Assembly: GCA_963807605.1 (NCBI GenBank)
Contig: CAWECG010000001.1
Span: 384,001-448,000, forward strand
Reading direction: 5' to 3'
Length of the DNA: 64,000 nucleotides
From: Candidatus Bathyarchaeota archaeon
GTDB taxonomy: Archaea; Thermoproteota; Bathyarchaeia; 40CM-2-53-6; RBG-13-38-9
The notes beneath the pieces were generated by a model, which did not search any database, was not told where the DNA came from, and saw only the letters and a list, made by a program, of their open reading frames with translations. A program made the translations under genes and the position numbers. Below, one piece after another: positions 10,925 to 47,966 of this stretch (within the stretch, counting starts at the first letter, position 1; each line of letters starts with the position of its first letter).

Positions 10925-11100
10925 GCTCACCATCTGTGTCACACACACACACACACACACACACACACACACACTTTCATCACTGCTCGCTACGCTCGCA
11001 GAACATACCCGCAAGAGTATGGCGTACTGCTTCAATAGTTGTCGAAGTTTATTGTTTTATGGTTTCTATGGTTTATGTTATCTATGGTTTGCGCACGCTG
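10925..11100. repeat. Modular intergenic element: degenerate arm + (CA)17 + GNA hairpin + TG-rich tail + GCGCACGC motif
   Basis: Similar to 26714-26738 and 34467-34565. Confidence 0.8.
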
Positions 11101-12319
11101 AACGTGGAGTGCGCCTTGAGTATCGATGAGGTCTTCTTTCGAAAGCGTGTCGAGTTTCATCGCTGGATCTGCTCGATCCTTCTCTCCTAGCAGTGAATGC
11201 GTCCGGGCCAGAGCTGAAGTTAAGTCGCTCAATCCGGTCGTCTGCCATCGATTGTATTGCCCGAAAGTCGACATTTTGCTCCGCGGATACTATCGTCACT
11301 GCGGTTCCCGTCTTGCCAGCTCGTCCGGTTCGACCAATCCTGTGGAAGTAAGTATACGGATTCTCAGGAACGTCATAGTTGATAATGTGTGTAACTCCGT
11401 CAATATCCAAGCCTCTTCCGGCCAGGTCAGTGGCAACCAGTATACGACTCTGACCGCTTCGAAATGCCTTCATTGCTCTATCGCGTTGATGTTGGGTAAG
11501 GTCACCGTTTAGTGCTATGGCGTCTTGATTTCTTCTCCCGAGTGATTGGTTCAGCCAGAATGTGCTGCGTTTGGTTCGACAGAAAACTATGGCACGTTGT
11601 ACTTCTTTGTCCTGCAGGATTCTTAAGAGCGCATCAAGTTTTCTTTCATGATCCACTTGGCAGTAGTATTGGCTAATCTGCTTGACATTGAGATCCTCCG
11701 GTTCGATCAGGACTTCGCGAGGGTTCTTCATATGCCTACGGGCAAGTTTCAGTACTTCCTTGGGCATCGTAGCGGAGAAGAACGCGATTTGACGTTTACT
11801 CCTAGTCTTAGTTAGAATATGCTCAACGTCATCAATGAAACCCATGTCCAGCAACCTGTCAGCCTCATCCAGAACAACACACTGGACTTTTTCAAGGTGA
11901 AGGGATCCACGTTCTATATGGTCGATGACTCGTCCCGGTGTTCCAACTATGATCTGCGGGCAATCTTCTAAGGCGCGTATTTGCACATTAATTGATTGGC
12001 CACCATAGATTGCAAGAGCGTGCTTGCGAGTGAATCTGCCATACGAGTTGATATCGCTGGCTACTTGCACTGCAAGCTCGCGTGTCGGAACGAGCACCAG
12101 CGCCTGAATGTTCAGGTTCTTTTCGTCAACGATCTCCAAGAGCGGTAGGCCGAAGGCAGCGGTCTTTCCAGTTCCGGTATGTGCTTGACCAATGACATCG
12201 CTTCCGTGCCGCAGAAGCGGAATAATTGCTTCTTGGATCGGAAACTGTCTCTCGAATCCAAGTGCCTTGATAGCGTCCAATATTTCTGAGCTTAAGCCCA
12301 GTTTCTCGAAATTACTCAT
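11078..12319 (-). CDS. DEAD-box RNA helicase (DeaD/CshA-like)
   Basis: Q motif, GTGKT, PTRELA, DEAD, SAT, HRIGRTGR. Confidence 0.96.
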   Translation of the reverse strand: MSNFEKLGLSSEILDAIKALGFERQFPIQEAIIPLLRHGSDVIGQAHTGTGKTAAFGLPLLEIVDEKNLNIQALVLVPTRELAVQVASDINSYGRFTRKHALAIYGGQSINVQIRALEDCPQIIVGTPGRVIDHIERGSLHLEKVQCVVLDEADRLLDMGFIDDVEHILTKTRSKRQIAFFSATMPKEVLKLARRHMKNPREVLIEPEDLNVKQISQYYCQVDHERKLDALLRILQDKEVQRAIVFCRTKRSTFWLNQSLGRRNQDAIALNGDLTQHQRDRAMKAFRSGQSRILVATDLAGRGLDIDGVTHIINYDVPENPYTYFHRIGRTGRAGKTGTAVTIVSAEQNVDFRAIQSMADDRIERLNFSSGPDAFTARREGSSRSSDETRHAFERRPHRYSRRTPRSACANHR

Positions 12320-12950
12320 TGATTATCTCTCCTTATCCTCCATTAACGTCGCAGGTCTGAAATGAAGGCCGAAAACTGATTCCATCTCGGTCTTTGACCC
12401 ATTGTGGAAACGAGACTTCGGTTGTTTCCTCGGACTTCCGCGACTTCGGTCAGTTGCAACAAGAAGAAGAATATGCGGGCAATCGTTGTAAATGACTCGC
12501 GTCTCTCGTTCTCGACAACTAACTTCGTGTATTCTCGCCGTCGTTCTATATAAGGATAGAAAGACAAGTTTCGTGAGTAATCTTAGTTAGAAGATGAAAT
12601 CGTCTATCTTCTCAGCAACAGGAAATAGTACATCAGTTAACAGAATAATGTTCCACGGCACACTGTTTCCCGAATAGCTACCTGTTATTAAAGGAAAAAA
12701 GCCACGTTGGACTTGATGATGCGGACTGGCTGGTGTGACTCATGGAACCTGTCTGACCGGGCCTCCCCTTCTTATGTGTCAGTGATAAGAGTGTTTAGAG
12801 TATGAAACACATATTGGATCTTTTGATTTGATGGCACCTACAATTCGCAGCTTTTGCTCCTATTGTTCGGCACTGATGGATCCAACGAATCCTCGATAGC
12901 GGTTGCGGAACAGGGATCTTCATTGAACAGGTGGCAGGCAAAGTCGAGTT

Positions 12951-13139
12951 CGTCGTCGTCGCCATAGCTGGTGAGCACACACACGAAATCAATACCAAGC
13001 GGTTCAATTCTAGATGCTCTCACCAACTAAGATGGGATATAGATAACTGGCTGTTTTGTGTGGTCACGTGGATGCTGTTTTTTTGACGTGAACATCCACA
13101 TAGACATTTCTAGGAAGAAATTGGGTTTAGCGCGCGCAA
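12951..13139. repeat. Modular REP-like element with a GGGATAT...GACATTTCTA module, ending in TAGCGCGCGC
   Basis: (cgt)3-tagctggtgagcacacacac...cggttcaat...gctctcacca; the tail matches 37140-37243. Confidence 0.85.
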
Positions 13140-47317: not shown

Positions 47318-47398
47318 ATACCTCTCATCTTCGTCAAAGTTTTATCAAAGTTGATATTAAATTGCTGACTGCGATCTGTAATTCTGTCATGATTCTGC

Positions 47399-47731
47399 TT
47401 ATTTCCTCGCACATCGAACATATTCGAGGAGTGTCCAGTCTGGATGTTCATAAAAGTTCAGATCGAGCCTATCATAGAGATGCTTGGCGATGAGCTTCTC
47501 AACAATCTTGGTTCCCCTGCCAAGTATGCCCTCCAGAGCTTTATGAAAGGTCTCAAGGTGCTCAGGGATTTCTTCGCGTCTGATTTCATACTTCCGCTCA
47601 ATATGGCCATAGATGGCTTGACGGGCACCCTCGCTAAAGACGGCCAAGCCATAGTCAACAGCCTCAAGCAAAATCTCTCTGAAGCGCCTAGCCAAGTCGA
47701 TCTCAAATTTCTGTGACGTGATCTTCACCAT
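47399..47731 (-). CDS. NitrOD5-like hypothetical protein
   Basis: LLEAVD.GL...IP...E.F..ALE.ILG.G pattern. Confidence 0.7.
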   Translation of the reverse strand: MVKITSQKFEIDLARRFREILLEAVDYGLAVFSEGARQAIYGHIERKYEIRREEIPEHLETFHKALEGILGRGTKIVEKLIAKHLYDRLDLNFYEHPDWTLLEYVRCARK

Positions 47732-47966
47732 CTGACAAATCCGCGGGATGATTGTAGTCAGCTCCCATCTTTGGCCAGGATCTCGAAAATCGCGTCAAAT
47801 GATCGCATCCAAACACGCGCGCCAACCTTCCTGTGTTCTAGGGGATGTCCTCTCACCAAGGGAAGTGTGCACTAAGTTACACAAGTTAGCTTCTTAAGAC
47901 TAGTAAAAACAGAAGTCTCGTCTATCTAATCTAGAAATACACAAAACCATTAGGCTTATTACGCTG

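What the first reader, a model, noticed from the sequence alone, without database searches (positions are those of the whole stretch)
10925..47875. About 14 combinatorial REP/BIME-like intergenic elements built from interchangeable parts
Seen at about 10925, 12951, 16107, 24497, 25630, 26707, 27197, 28395, 32521, 34372, 34852, 37068, 42313 and 47850. Parts: arm A TAGCTGGTGAG, arm B CCCTTGGTGAG (both share TGGTGAG), core CTAACGGTTCAAAT, and variable microsatellites (CA)n, (CGT)n, (CAC)n next to the arms. Arms vary in number, order and orientation. The two-arm form (e.g. 34376-34441, tagctggtgagcac...gtgctctcaccagcta) folds into a 14-bp stem with a recurrent 2-nt bulge around the core. Established: bulged ssDNA hairpins are substrates for integron integrases (attC) and HUH transposases (REP/RAYT). 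Inference: a non-autonomous mobile repeat or recombination substrate that I do not recognise in archaea. Six or more copies abut a GCGC motif, so both probably belong to one system.
Basis: partly seen in the sequence, partly recalled or inferred. Interest (0 to 1): 0.85.

Follow-up and report, generated by a model that had tools for sequence, protein, structure and literature searches.

The report
Casposon landing sites and end scars
The repeats are real, but they are not REP- or integron-type hairpins: they are the 14-base landing sites, tRNA-tail-like docking boxes and end tips left by jumping elements that insert with a CRISPR-type Cas1 enzyme (casposons), present here in unusually high numbers, with unusual simple-repeat tips, and stacked between small gene cassettes.

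Summary
Observation confirmed. All 14 places exist. The arms and the core occur 7 to 14 times in the window, against about one expected from shuffles. Genome-wide I count 137 arm sites with context and 59 arm-plus-core units.

Interpretation partly supported. The repeats do belong to mobile DNA, but the hairpin is incidental. Only one of five two-arm forms folds well, and most inverted forms mix arm A with arm B.

The arm is the conserved part of a 14-bp casposon target. The core plus arm reads like the 3' end of a tRNA gene. The microsatellites are element tips that abut the 14-mer at fixed positions. Four anchors support this:
- A 9-kb element elsewhere in this genome carries a casposase and lies between exact 15-bp direct copies of arm A.
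- An element in another family lies between exact 14-bp copies of a variant arm.
- A non-microsatellite end family matches the published Methanosarcina mazei casposon end tip in 14 of 16 bases.
- Methanosarcinales junctions have the same box, 9-nt gap and 14-bp geometry.

No casposase gene and no clean duplication pair lie inside the window. The region is a scrambled cassette field.

Earlier agents of this scan reached the same reading on other parts of this genome. I class it as a new variant of a known kind.

The parts
10926..11079 (-). Degenerate 14-mer (10926-10939), (CA)17 tip (10940-10973) and about 100-nt subterminal end module with the GCTCGCTACGCTCGC box (10985)
   Evidence: (D4: 84% copy at 34464-34564)
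12950..13137 (.). (TCG)4 tip; 14-mer A+ (12962-12975); (CA)4 tip; docking box (12996-13018); 14-mer A- (13019-13032); canonical casposon end starting GGGATATAGATAAC (13033 onward), cut off at (GC)4 (13130-13137)
   Evidence: (D1)
16108..16220 (-). (TG)4 tip; 14-mer B- (16116-16129); 38-nt mini-module with (CGA) tip; 14-mer A- (16168-16181); (CA)5 tip; subterminal box at 16206
16182..24532 (-). Candidate 8.35-kb cargo segment with (CA)5...(TG)4 tips between two A- sites whose 14-mers agree in 11 of 14 bases. Cargo: TrmO, two Rieske proteins, ferredoxin-thioredoxin reductase beta, response regulator, Usp, gene fragments. Four internal (GC)n patches
24486..24595 (.). (GC)4 patch replacing the arm of a docking box (24495-24517); (TG)4 tip; 14-mer A- (24533-24546); 14-mer B+ (24557-24570); 11-nt (CGA) tip-only joint; B-like 14-mer, minus strand (24582-24595)
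25640..25707 (.). 14-mer B+; (CA)4 tip; docking box (25671-25693); A-like 14-mer, minus strand. A two-arm form with unlike arms
26693..26738 (-). (GC)3 patch; T run; (TG)4 tip; A-like 14-mer, minus strand (26715-26728); (CA)5 tip
27200..27317 (.). (TG)5 tip; 14-mer A+ (27210-27223); docking box (27224-27246); (TG)5 tip; 14-mer B- (27263-27276); canonical casposon end tip (27277 onward)
28379..28506 (+). Subterminal box (28379); (TG)4 tip; 14-mer A+ (28414-28427); docking box (28428-28450); (TG)5 tip; 14-mer A+ (28474-28487); (CGA)n tip. A direct 60-bp array
   Evidence: (D2)
32522..32632 (.). (TG)4 tip; 14-mer A+ (32530-32543); mixed (CAC)/(CA) tip; docking box (32578-32600); 14-mer B- (32601-32614); (CA)4 tip; (GC)4 patch (32625-32632)
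34373..34564 (.). 14-mer A+; (CA)5 tip; docking box (34408-34430); 14-mer A- (34431-34444); irregular C1-3A-like tip; about 100-nt subterminal module. The only copy that forms a good hairpin
34856..34878 (-). A-like 14-mer (one mismatch) with (CAC)3 tip
37068..37242 (+). B-like 14-mer ending TGGTGCG (37068-37081); docking box (37082-37104); (TG)6 tip; 14-mer B+ (37125-37138); canonical casposon end (37139-37242)
42314..42367 (.). 8-nt (TCG) tip joined directly to the peptidase-A4 cassette; B-like 14-mer, minus strand (42322-42335); 8-nt tip-only joint; 14-mer A+ (42344-42357); (CA)5 tip
47852..47865 (-). Solo 14-mer B without tip or convincing docking box; (GC)3 36 nt away
38100..39934 (.). 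SSB-like OB protein plus TBP cassette bounded by (GC)n patches on both sides. Copies at C2:45869-47272 (94%) and C1:135777-137547 (92%); homology stops exactly at the patches

Best explanation
The elements are junction modules of casposon-type insertions.

- Target: a 14-bp sequence in two versions. It reads CCN + arm A, or T(G/A)T + arm B.
- Docking box: the core lies next to the GAG side of the target. On the other strand, box plus target read like the 3' end of a tRNA gene: a T-loop-like GGTTCAAAT, 5 variable bases, TGCT, then the 14-mer CTCA-CCA + 7.
- Integration: a Cas1-family casposase recognises the box and joins the two 3' ends of an element 14 bp apart. This duplicates the 14-mer.
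- Ends: elements finish in short tips that abut the 14-mer exactly. The tips are (CA)n, (CGA)n, (CAC)n or the canonical GGGGATAT.
- Arrays: repeated use of the same pad gives tandem arrays. Many ends also carry a copy of box plus 14-mer about 10 nt inside the tip, so new pads travel with the elements. This produces nested arrays in either orientation. The two-arm hairpin is simply an outer 14-mer facing such an inner pad.

Shown: the anatomy, the exact flanking repeats around two casposase-bearing elements, and the likeness to published family-2 ends and targets.

Inferred: that the casposase-less cassettes of this window were moved in trans by the one intact casposase element of the genome, and that later deletions and (GC)n-patched joints scrambled them.
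For: 1. A casposase gene (402 aa; Pfam Cas1 2.7e-49) has as its best solved relative the M. mazei casposase 6OPM, at 5.7e-72 over the full length. The best CRISPR Cas1 scores 4.4e-25. The gene lies in a 9-kb element at C3:796434-805414, flanked by an exact 15-bp direct repeat that contains arm A with the rare prefix CTT. The ends are (CGA)n and (TCG)n, and a docking box lies beside the right copy.

2. Independent replicate in another family of the order (G038). A casposase at 67% identity lies in a 9.4-kb segment with (CA)n...(TG)9 ends between exact 14-bp direct copies of a variant arm, with a docking box beside the left copy. Both copies carry the same variant.

3. Thirteen ends in this genome, three of them in the window, start with GGGGATATAGATAAC at the same junction positions as the microsatellites. 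The reverse strand matches the M. mazei casposon end used in PMC6977970 in 14 of 16 bases.

4. Methanosarcinales junctions fetched with that end read GGTTCGAAT, then 9 nt, then a 14-mer starting CGCA, then the tip. The spacing is the same as here, and many of those boxes are pseudo-tRNA ends too. The literature reports a 14-bp duplication overlapping the tRNA end, a need for about 30 bp upstream, tandem casposons that share one duplication, and solo ends.

5. Of 49 strict docking boxes, 30 have an element tip exactly 14 bp away.

6. The 14-mer-plus-box model is multi-copy (11-44 matches) in seven genomes of two families, gives one match each in two further genomes, and gives none in 142 other genomes of the class. 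Casposase genes or remnants are present in every multi-copy genome.

7. For segments between adjacent, like-oriented sites with matching tips, 5 of 10 have 14-mers identical in at least 13 of 14 bases, against 19% of random pairs (p about 0.03).
Against: - No casposase gene or fragment lies in the window.
- No pair of window sites is a clean duplication. The best pair, 16168/24533, agrees in 11 of 14 bases.
- Genome-wide, many segments lie between an A and a B site, or between inverted sites. One casposase locus (G002) lies between inverted arms.
- Tip types at the two ends of a segment match no more often than chance (10 of 19).
- The elements have no family B polymerase, which is a defining casposon gene.
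- No empty-versus-filled site could be shown. Relatives share no synteny here and read data were not available.
- Tip-only joints between inverted 14-mers (24557-24595, 42322-42357) are not explained by simple insertion.
Confidence: 0.8

Rival explanations
1. REP/BIME-like or IS200/IS605-type single-strand hairpins that are moved or processed by an HUH (Y1/RAYT) transposase.
For: The genome has four Y1_Tnp genes. One two-arm copy, 34373-34444, folds into a bulged hairpin.
Against: Three of the four Y1 genes lie 13 kb or more from the nearest site, or on a contig without sites. The fourth merely lies inside an island. Direct, inverted and solo arrangements are all common, and 6-7 of 11 inverted forms pair arm A with arm B. 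Four of five window forms fold no better than shuffles. Ends abut a fixed 14-mer, as for a staggered-cut integrase.
Confidence: 0.02
2. Integron-like or tRNA-att-type site-specific recombination. A tyrosine recombinase exchanges cassettes at the 14-mer and box, as for attC sites or the tRNA-end attachment sites of integrative elements.
For: The cassette-like layout of small unrelated genes. Flanking sites are often unlike (A against B), which exchange would produce. Two of the five tyrosine recombinase genes lie within 1 kb of a site elsewhere in the genome. Overlap of casposon targets with integrase attachment sites at tRNA ends is known.
Against: No recombinase gene lies in the window. The two best-preserved elements carry a casposase and no integrase. 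The junction carries canonical casposon end tips. The repeat length of 14 bp and its position relative to the T-loop-like box equal those of family-2 casposons.
Confidence: 0.05
3. The units are expressed tRNA-like or regulatory small RNAs (terminators, processing signals). The repeats are kept for an RNA function.
For: The T-loop-like box and the ACCA end resemble a tRNA 3' half. The units are intergenic.
Against: ARAGORN finds no tRNA in the window. No Rfam family matches at E up to 1. The T-arm positions pair in 26.7% of cells, against 27.7% in shuffles. Units occur in both orientations relative to the neighbouring genes.
Confidence: 0.03
4. The arms are casposon targets, but the microsatellite tips are not inherited terminal repeats. 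They are written afresh onto DNA 3' ends by the element's small primase-polymerase. The casposase then inserts the tailed fragments, which amounts to gene capture. The (GC)n patches would be the self-annealing version of the same tailing.
For: - Apart from a recurrent subterminal box in some (CA)n and (CAC)n ends, tips are mostly the only sequence shared by ends, and 133 of 150 tipped ends have unique sequence directly behind the tip.
- One end family carries (CA)3, (CA)17, (CAC)3-5 or irregular C1-3A-like tips in different copies.
- The peptidase-A4 cassette has an 8-nt tip that its 96% paralogue lacks, and homology stops exactly at the tip.
- (GC)n patches sit exactly at homology breakpoints.
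- Both casposase elements share a 157-aa protein with DxD, H and DD motifs. Its model best matches the LigD polymerase domain.
- Published casposases accept ends as short as 6 nt and single-stranded ends.
Against: - Slippage and decay of ordinary terminal repeats could give the same tip variation.
- Ten paralogous ends share the same tip.
- The structural match is weak (Foldseek E 4e-3, 78 aligned columns; model pLDDT 73).
- Only one clear case of a paralogue without a tip was found.
- No enzyme activity is known.
Confidence: 0.12

Closest known systems
Family-2 casposons of Methanosarcina mazei (MetMaz elements; casposase structure 6OPM) and Aciduliprofundum boonei (AciBoo-C1)
   Same: The casposase is the best solved-structure match. 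The target duplication is 14 bp and starts 4 nt before the end of a tRNA-like acceptor strand. A T-loop-like box lies 9 nt upstream. The end tip TATATCCC is shared by one end family. Tandem elements share one duplication, and solo ends occur.
   Different: No family B polymerase; instead a small AEP-like protein, a 123-aa protein and a P-loop ATPase. Most ends are microsatellite tips of variable length. There are 137 sites and 59 docking boxes in a 2.65-Mb genome, instead of a few. Docking boxes are carried on the elements. The cargo is ordinary small cellular genes. The encoded CCA is part of the 14-mer.
REP/BIME elements with RAYT transposases
   Same: Short intergenic repeats in many copies, built from modules in both orientations.
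   Different: No conserved hairpin, no association with a Y1 transposase, and a fixed 14-bp junction with element ends.
Integron cassette arrays (attC/attI with IntI)
   Same: Rows of small unrelated gene cassettes separated by a recurrent site. Pads that allow stacking.
   Different: No IntI. The site is a duplicated 14-mer beside a docking box, not a folded attC. The linked enzyme is of the Cas1 family.
CRISPR leader-repeat units
   Same: A Cas1-family integrase, a docking sequence on one side of a short repeat that is duplicated at each insertion, and short arrays with about 60-bp period (for example 28414-28487).
   Different: The units between repeats are copies of one another, not captured spacers. 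The repeat is 14 bp. No Cas2 or effector genes were seen in the two casposase elements examined.
Terminal reiterations of linear replicons and telomeric C1-3A repeats (own knowledge: phi29/PRD1 sliding-back, adenovirus CATCAT ends, yeast telomeres)
   Same: Simple di- or trinucleotide repeats of variable number at the very ends of a DNA element. Some tips are irregular C1-3A-like.
   Different: No protein-primed polymerase or reverse transcriptase was found in the elements. This is a resemblance only and was not tested.

Membership tests
Family-2 casposon system | Cas1-family casposase encoded inside the element | tested here: met
   Met for the genome, not for the window. The gene at C3:803495-804700 matches Pfam Cas1 at 2.7e-49 and 6OPM at 5.7e-72 over the full length. 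No copy or fragment lies in the window.
Family-2 casposon system | Target site duplication of about 14 bp flanking the element | tested here: met
   Exact 15-bp repeats around the G000 casposase element and exact 14-bp repeats around the G038 element. In the window this is inconclusive: the best pair agrees in 11 of 14 bases.
Family-2 casposon system | Site-specific target at the 3' end of a tRNA gene, with a recognition sequence upstream | tested here: met
   The geometry is identical to Methanosarcinales junctions: box, 9 nt, 14-mer. The boxes here are pseudo-tRNA ends, not working tRNA genes.
Family-2 casposon system | Terminal inverted repeats with the family's end tip | tested here: met
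   Thirteen GGGGATAT-type ends, three in the window, match the M. mazei end in 14 of 16 bases. Most other ends are microsatellite tips, which is a variant.
Family-2 casposon system | Family B DNA polymerase (self-synthesising) | tested here: not met
   No polymerase domain in the ORFs of at least 80 aa (G000) or 90 aa (G038) of the two casposase elements. PF03175 was not found in five genomes; its sensitivity is uncertain, because the control rang in one genome only.
REP/BIME with RAYT | Conserved imperfect palindrome kept by selection | tested here: not met
   Of 59 units, 11 are inverted forms and 6-7 of those have unlike arms. Four of five window forms give fold z-scores from -1.5 to +0.2.
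REP/BIME with RAYT | Y1/HUH transposase gene associated with the repeats | tested here: not met
   Four Y1_Tnp genes. The nearest sites are 1.8 kb away (inside an island), 13.5 kb away, 49 kb away, or absent from the contig.
Integron | IntI-type tyrosine recombinase with attI next to the cassette array | tested here: not met
   Five Phage_integrase matches in the genome, none in the window.
MITE of a resident insertion sequence | Termini matching the inverted repeats of an IS in the genome | tested here: not met
   The only IS in the region (IS5-like, 30438-31518, eight near-identical copies) has its own 19-nt inverted repeats, unrelated to the arms. ISfinder itself was not available.
tRNA or tRNA-like RNA family | Cloverleaf or T-arm pairing; match to a curated RNA model | tested here: not met
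   ARAGORN finds none. Rfam gives no match at E up to 1. T-stem cells pair in 26.7% of cases against 27.7% in shuffles.

The most novel reading that the evidence does not exclude
The casposase acts here as a cassette-capture integrase rather than only as a transposase. Broken or excised DNA fragments receive short simple-repeat 3' tails from the element's small AEP-type polymerase. These tails are the irregular (CA)/(CAC)/(CGA) tips. The self-complementary (GC)n version lets two ends anneal and leaves the palindromic patches. The casposase then inserts tailed fragments at portable 14-bp landing pads. This would be a natural intermediate between a transposon, an integron and CRISPR spacer acquisition.
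Probability: 0.12. Interest if true: 0.9.

Novelty: new variant of a known kind. Interest (0 to 1): 0.66.

Why it matters
Casposons are regarded as the ancestors of the CRISPR adaptation machinery, but they are known as rare, large, polymerase-carrying elements with one or a few sites per genome. This Bathyarchaeia lineage shows three departures from that picture:
- The same integrase chemistry is linked to more than a hundred junctions.
- Landing pads travel with the elements.
- Short arrays of a 14-bp repeat occur with about 60-bp period.

It also has polymerase-less elements whose ends are only a few repeats long. If the casposase-less cassettes really are moved in trans, this is the first large family of non-autonomous casposon derivatives. 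I found no paper describing such elements, or casposons in Bathyarchaeia, in the library searched.

It would also show how a Cas1 integrase can build ordered arrays beside a leader-like docking sequence before any immunity function exists. In practice, these repeats explain why the accessory regions of these genomes assemble poorly and lack synteny.

Tried and rejected
- Empty-versus-filled sites. Both halves of the region were searched in four relatives. Only scattered pieces at 65-85% identity on many contigs were found, with no synteny, so no comparison was possible.
- Public sequencing runs for polymorphism and transcription.
- Naive pairing of any arm-plus-tip with the next matching tip-plus-arm gave mostly unlike 14-mers. 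This was replaced by the stricter test on adjacent pairs.
- T-arm pairing of the docking box: not maintained.
- tRNA origin: no tRNA found by ARAGORN in this genome has an acceptor end matching the box. The source tRNA remains unknown.
- Known RNA families: none.
- HUH transposase link: rejected.
- IS5-like element as the parent of the repeats: rejected.
- Protein-primed polymerase: not found, but the control shows that this search is not very sensitive.
- The proteins flanking the casposase (224 and 230 aa) are not conserved between the two elements.
- Sequence search of the 157-aa and 123-aa proteins against solved structures: nothing convincing. Only the fold comparison pointed to an AEP polymerase.
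- Tip types at the two ends of a segment: no excess of matching pairs.
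Full report
**Observation**

- Arm A occurs 14 times (up to 1 mismatch), against 1.06 expected.
- Arm B occurs 11 times, against 0.95.
- The core occurs 7 times (up to 2 mismatches), against 0.34.

Every listed place holds an arm or a degenerate arm beside (CA)n, (CGA/TCG)n or (CAC)n tracts.

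The window is C1:384001-448000 of a 2.65-Mb, five-contig genome. Earlier notes of this scan call it Bathyarchaeia. Genome-wide there are 69 exact copies of arm A, 29 of arm B and 20 of the core. I count 137 arm sites with recognisable context, clustered in islands, and 59 arm-plus-core units.

**Anatomy**

I lined up all exact arms and classified what lies on each side. This gives a fixed plan.

- The conserved unit is a 14-mer. It is CCN followed by arm A, or T(G/A)T followed by arm B.
- On the GAG side, the next base starts one of five things: a docking box (AGCA, five variable bases, ATTTGAACCGTTAG), a (CA)n run, a (CGA)n run, a (CAC)n run, or the sequence GGGGATATAGATAAC.
- On the CCN side, the mirror images of the last four (all but the box) end exactly at the 14-mer.
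- Read on the other strand, box plus 14-mer has the layout of a tRNA 3' end: GGTTCAAAT, five bases, seven acceptor-like bases, A, CCA, then seven more bases.

The tRNA genes of this genome encode CCA. The box is not a working tRNA part, on three counts:
- ARAGORN and Rfam find nothing.
- The T-stem positions pair no better than shuffles, 26.7% against 27.7%.
- The five bases that would form the stem vary freely.

**The hairpin**

The stem described for 34376-34441 is real (z -3.4). The other four two-arm forms in the window fold like shuffled sequence (z -1.5 to +0.2).

Genome-wide, the arm that follows a docking unit is direct in 15 cases, inverted in 11 and absent in 33. Only 3-4 of the 11 inverted cases have two arms of the same kind. 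There is no compensatory change and no preferred orientation. The hairpin is therefore a by-product of two target copies that face each other. The 2-nt bulge arises because the tip starts CAC where the box reads AGCAC.

**Link to an enzyme**

The genome has one complete Cas1 gene and several fragments. The complete gene encodes a 402-aa protein. Its best solved relative is the Methanosarcina mazei casposase 6OPM, at 5.7e-72 over the full length. CRISPR Cas1 proteins score 4.4e-25 or worse.

The gene lies in a 9-kb element at C3:796434-805414.
- Its ends are (CGA)n and (TCG)n.
- Its flanks are an exact 15-bp direct repeat containing arm A with the rare prefix CTT.
- A docking box lies beside the right copy.
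- To its left a second element, with (CA)n...(TG)n ends, shares the middle 14-mer. Together they form a polarised tandem array.

A replicate exists in a genome of another family (G038). A casposase at 67% identity lies in a 9.4-kb segment with (CA)n...(TG)9 ends. The segment sits between exact 14-bp direct copies of a variant arm that starts CGCACCA, again beside a docking box. Both copies changed together relative to the G000 arms, which is what a target duplication predicts.

The four Y1 transposase genes are not associated with the sites. No tyrosine recombinase gene lies in the window.

**Comparison with published casposons**

The papers read here report the following:
- Family-2 casposons make 14-bp duplications that overlap the last 4 bp of a tRNA gene.
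- They need about 30 bp upstream of that point.
- They can sit in tandem and share one duplication.
- They leave solo ends.
- The M. mazei casposase accepts ends as short as 6 nt.

The end sequence used in PMC6977970 finishes in CCTATATCCC. The GGGGATAT end family of this genome has 13 ends, three of them in the window at 13033, 27277 and 37139. Read on the other strand it matches that sequence in 14 of 16 bases.

I fetched natural junctions with that published end from public genomes. In Methanosarcina, Methanolobus, Methanococcoides and Methanohalophilus they read GGTTCGAAT, nine bases, a 14-mer starting CGCA, then the end tip. Many of those boxes are pseudo-tRNA ends too. The spacing is the same as here: box, five plus four bases, 14-mer. 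The microsatellite tips occupy exactly the positions of this canonical tip.

**Distribution**

A sequence model of 14-mer plus box finds 11-44 copies per genome in five genomes of the same family and two of a second family. It finds single matches in two more genomes and none in 142 other genomes of the class. Every multi-copy genome has a casposase gene or remnant. Kin are not independent, so this is supporting evidence only.

**The window itself**

The region between 10.9 and 47.9 kb is a field of small cassettes between these junctions. The cargo comprises:
- DEAD helicase, TrmO, two Rieske proteins, ferredoxin-thioredoxin reductase beta;
- a response regulator, Usp, a cupin, a truncated hydrolase, a GYD protein, flavodoxin;
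- a methyltransferase, an SSB-like OB protein with a TBP paralogue, peptidase A4, DUF998, glyoxalase;
- several gene fragments.

No casposase, and none of the other three proteins shared by the two casposase elements (ATPase, 157-aa and 123-aa proteins), is encoded in the window. No pair of sites in the window is a clean duplication; the best candidate, 16182-24532, has flanks that agree in 11 of 14 bases.

Genome-wide, segments between adjacent like-oriented sites with the same tip type have near-identical 14-mers in 5 of 10 cases, against 19% for random pairs (p about 0.03). Tip types at the two ends match in only 10 of 19 segments. One casposase locus lies between inverted arms.

The window is therefore best read as old, nested and rearranged insertions, not as a set of intact elements. 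Mobility of these particular cassettes is inferred, not shown.

**Landing pads on the elements**

About 10 nt inside many (CA)n tips lies a complete box plus 14-mer. That inner 14-mer is nearly always followed by another element tip. This explains the roughly 60-bp direct arrays (for example 28414-28487) and the hairpin forms as the two orientations of one module.

Other microsatellite-tipped ends carry the box GCTCGCTACGCTCGC at the same place, always in the same orientation. There are 31 copies in the genome, four of them at element ends in the window. The same box lies at the ends that flank the casposase loci of G038 and G002.

**The (GC)n motif**

(GC)3+ tracts are common in the same islands (768 in the genome). 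They lie within 100 nt of 29 of 137 sites, against 11.2 expected locally. In the window they sit exactly at breakpoints of homology between paralogous segments:
- both sides of the SSB-TBP cassette (38100 and 39927);
- the left edge of 23433-24281;
- the right edge of the repeated 18107-18935 segment;
- both sides of the C3 copy of 25096-25605.

They often lie 10-100 nt inside an element end, as if the rest of the element had been replaced. They are a second kind of joint in the same regions, not a part of the arm unit.

**Open points on the tips**

- Apart from the recurrent subterminal box, tips are mostly the only sequence shared by ends, and 133 of 150 tipped ends have unique sequence directly behind the tip.
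- One end family carries (CA)3, (CA)17, (CAC)3-5 or irregular C1-3A-like tips in different copies.
- The peptidase-A4 cassette carries an 8-nt tip that its 96% paralogue lacks.
- The two casposase elements share only four proteins: the casposase, a P-loop ATPase, a 123-aa protein, and a 157-aa protein with invariant DxD, H and DD motifs. The model of the 157-aa protein (pLDDT 73) best matches the polymerase domain of LigD, an AEP-family end-processing polymerase (Foldseek probability 1.0, E 4e-3, 78 columns).
- No family B polymerase is present.

This leaves room for the idea that the tips are made afresh on DNA ends. Ordinary slippage in short terminal repeats, combined with an integrase that tolerates very short ends, explains the same data more simply.

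**Verdict**

The interpretation as a mobile, non-autonomous repeat is right in outline and wrong in mechanism. The elements are targets, docking boxes and end scars of family-2-like casposons. They form a variant without polymerase, with microsatellite tips, portable landing pads and very high copy number.

Earlier agents of this scan reached the same reading on other parts of this genome. I took the casposon lead from those notes and tested it independently, as described above. I found no paper describing casposons in Bathyarchaeia or non-autonomous casposon derivatives in the library searched.

Noticed in passing
window 34225-34301 (-): A fluoride riboswitch (Rfam RF01734, 42.1 bits, E 2.8e-08) lies upstream of a 150-aa ORF (33613-34065, minus strand) that has no Pfam match. 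It is only about 70 nt from the site at 34373.
   Followed up: no
window 30438-31518: An IS5-like insertion sequence (DDE_Tnp_1) with its own 19-nt inverted repeats. Seven further copies in the genome are 99.9-100% identical, so it was probably active recently.
   Followed up: partly
window 38100-39934; C2:45869-47272; C1:135777-137547: A cassette encoding an SSB-like OB protein and a TBP paralogue is present three times. In the window it is bounded on both sides by (GC)n patches that the paralogues lack at those points.
   Followed up: partly
window 18107-18935: An approximately 830-bp segment holding the C-terminal fragment of a periplasmic-binding-protein gene is repeated seven times in the genome (75-95% identity). 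It ends exactly at a (GC)4 tract.
   Followed up: no
window 28221-28414: The tail of a gene that encodes a hydrophobic stretch followed by RRRR (my reading: a C-terminal membrane anchor) is repeated five times in the genome. It is followed each time by the same subterminal box, a tip and a 14-mer.
   Followed up: no
window 24557-24595 and 42322-42357; also C3:49787, C3:386181, C4:721491: Two inverted 14-mers are separated by only 8-11 nt of (CGA)/(TCG) repeat. This recurrent joint is not explained by simple insertion.
   Followed up: no
L012:5429-7096 (G000 C3) and L053:7206-8752 (G038): Both casposase elements share a P-loop ATPase with a weak TniB-like hit, a 157-aa AEP-like protein (DxD, H, DD motifs; about 200 metagenomic relatives, no Pfam family) and a 123-aa protein. 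The cargo of the G000 element includes SIR2-like, ATPase_2 and DUF5677 proteins.
   Followed up: partly
window 10985, 16206, 28379, 34470, 41227: The box GCTCGCTACGCTCGC has 31 copies in the genome. In four of the five window copies it lies 25-45 nt inside a microsatellite tip, always in the same orientation; the copy at 41227 has lost its tip and 14-mer. It is a candidate protein-binding site of these ends.
   Followed up: partly
window 23797-24180 and 32652-33016: Inverted paralogous gene segments (78-88% identity) lie next to two different junction sites. The second has a 98.6% copy at C1:576129-576828, beside another site.
   Followed up: partly
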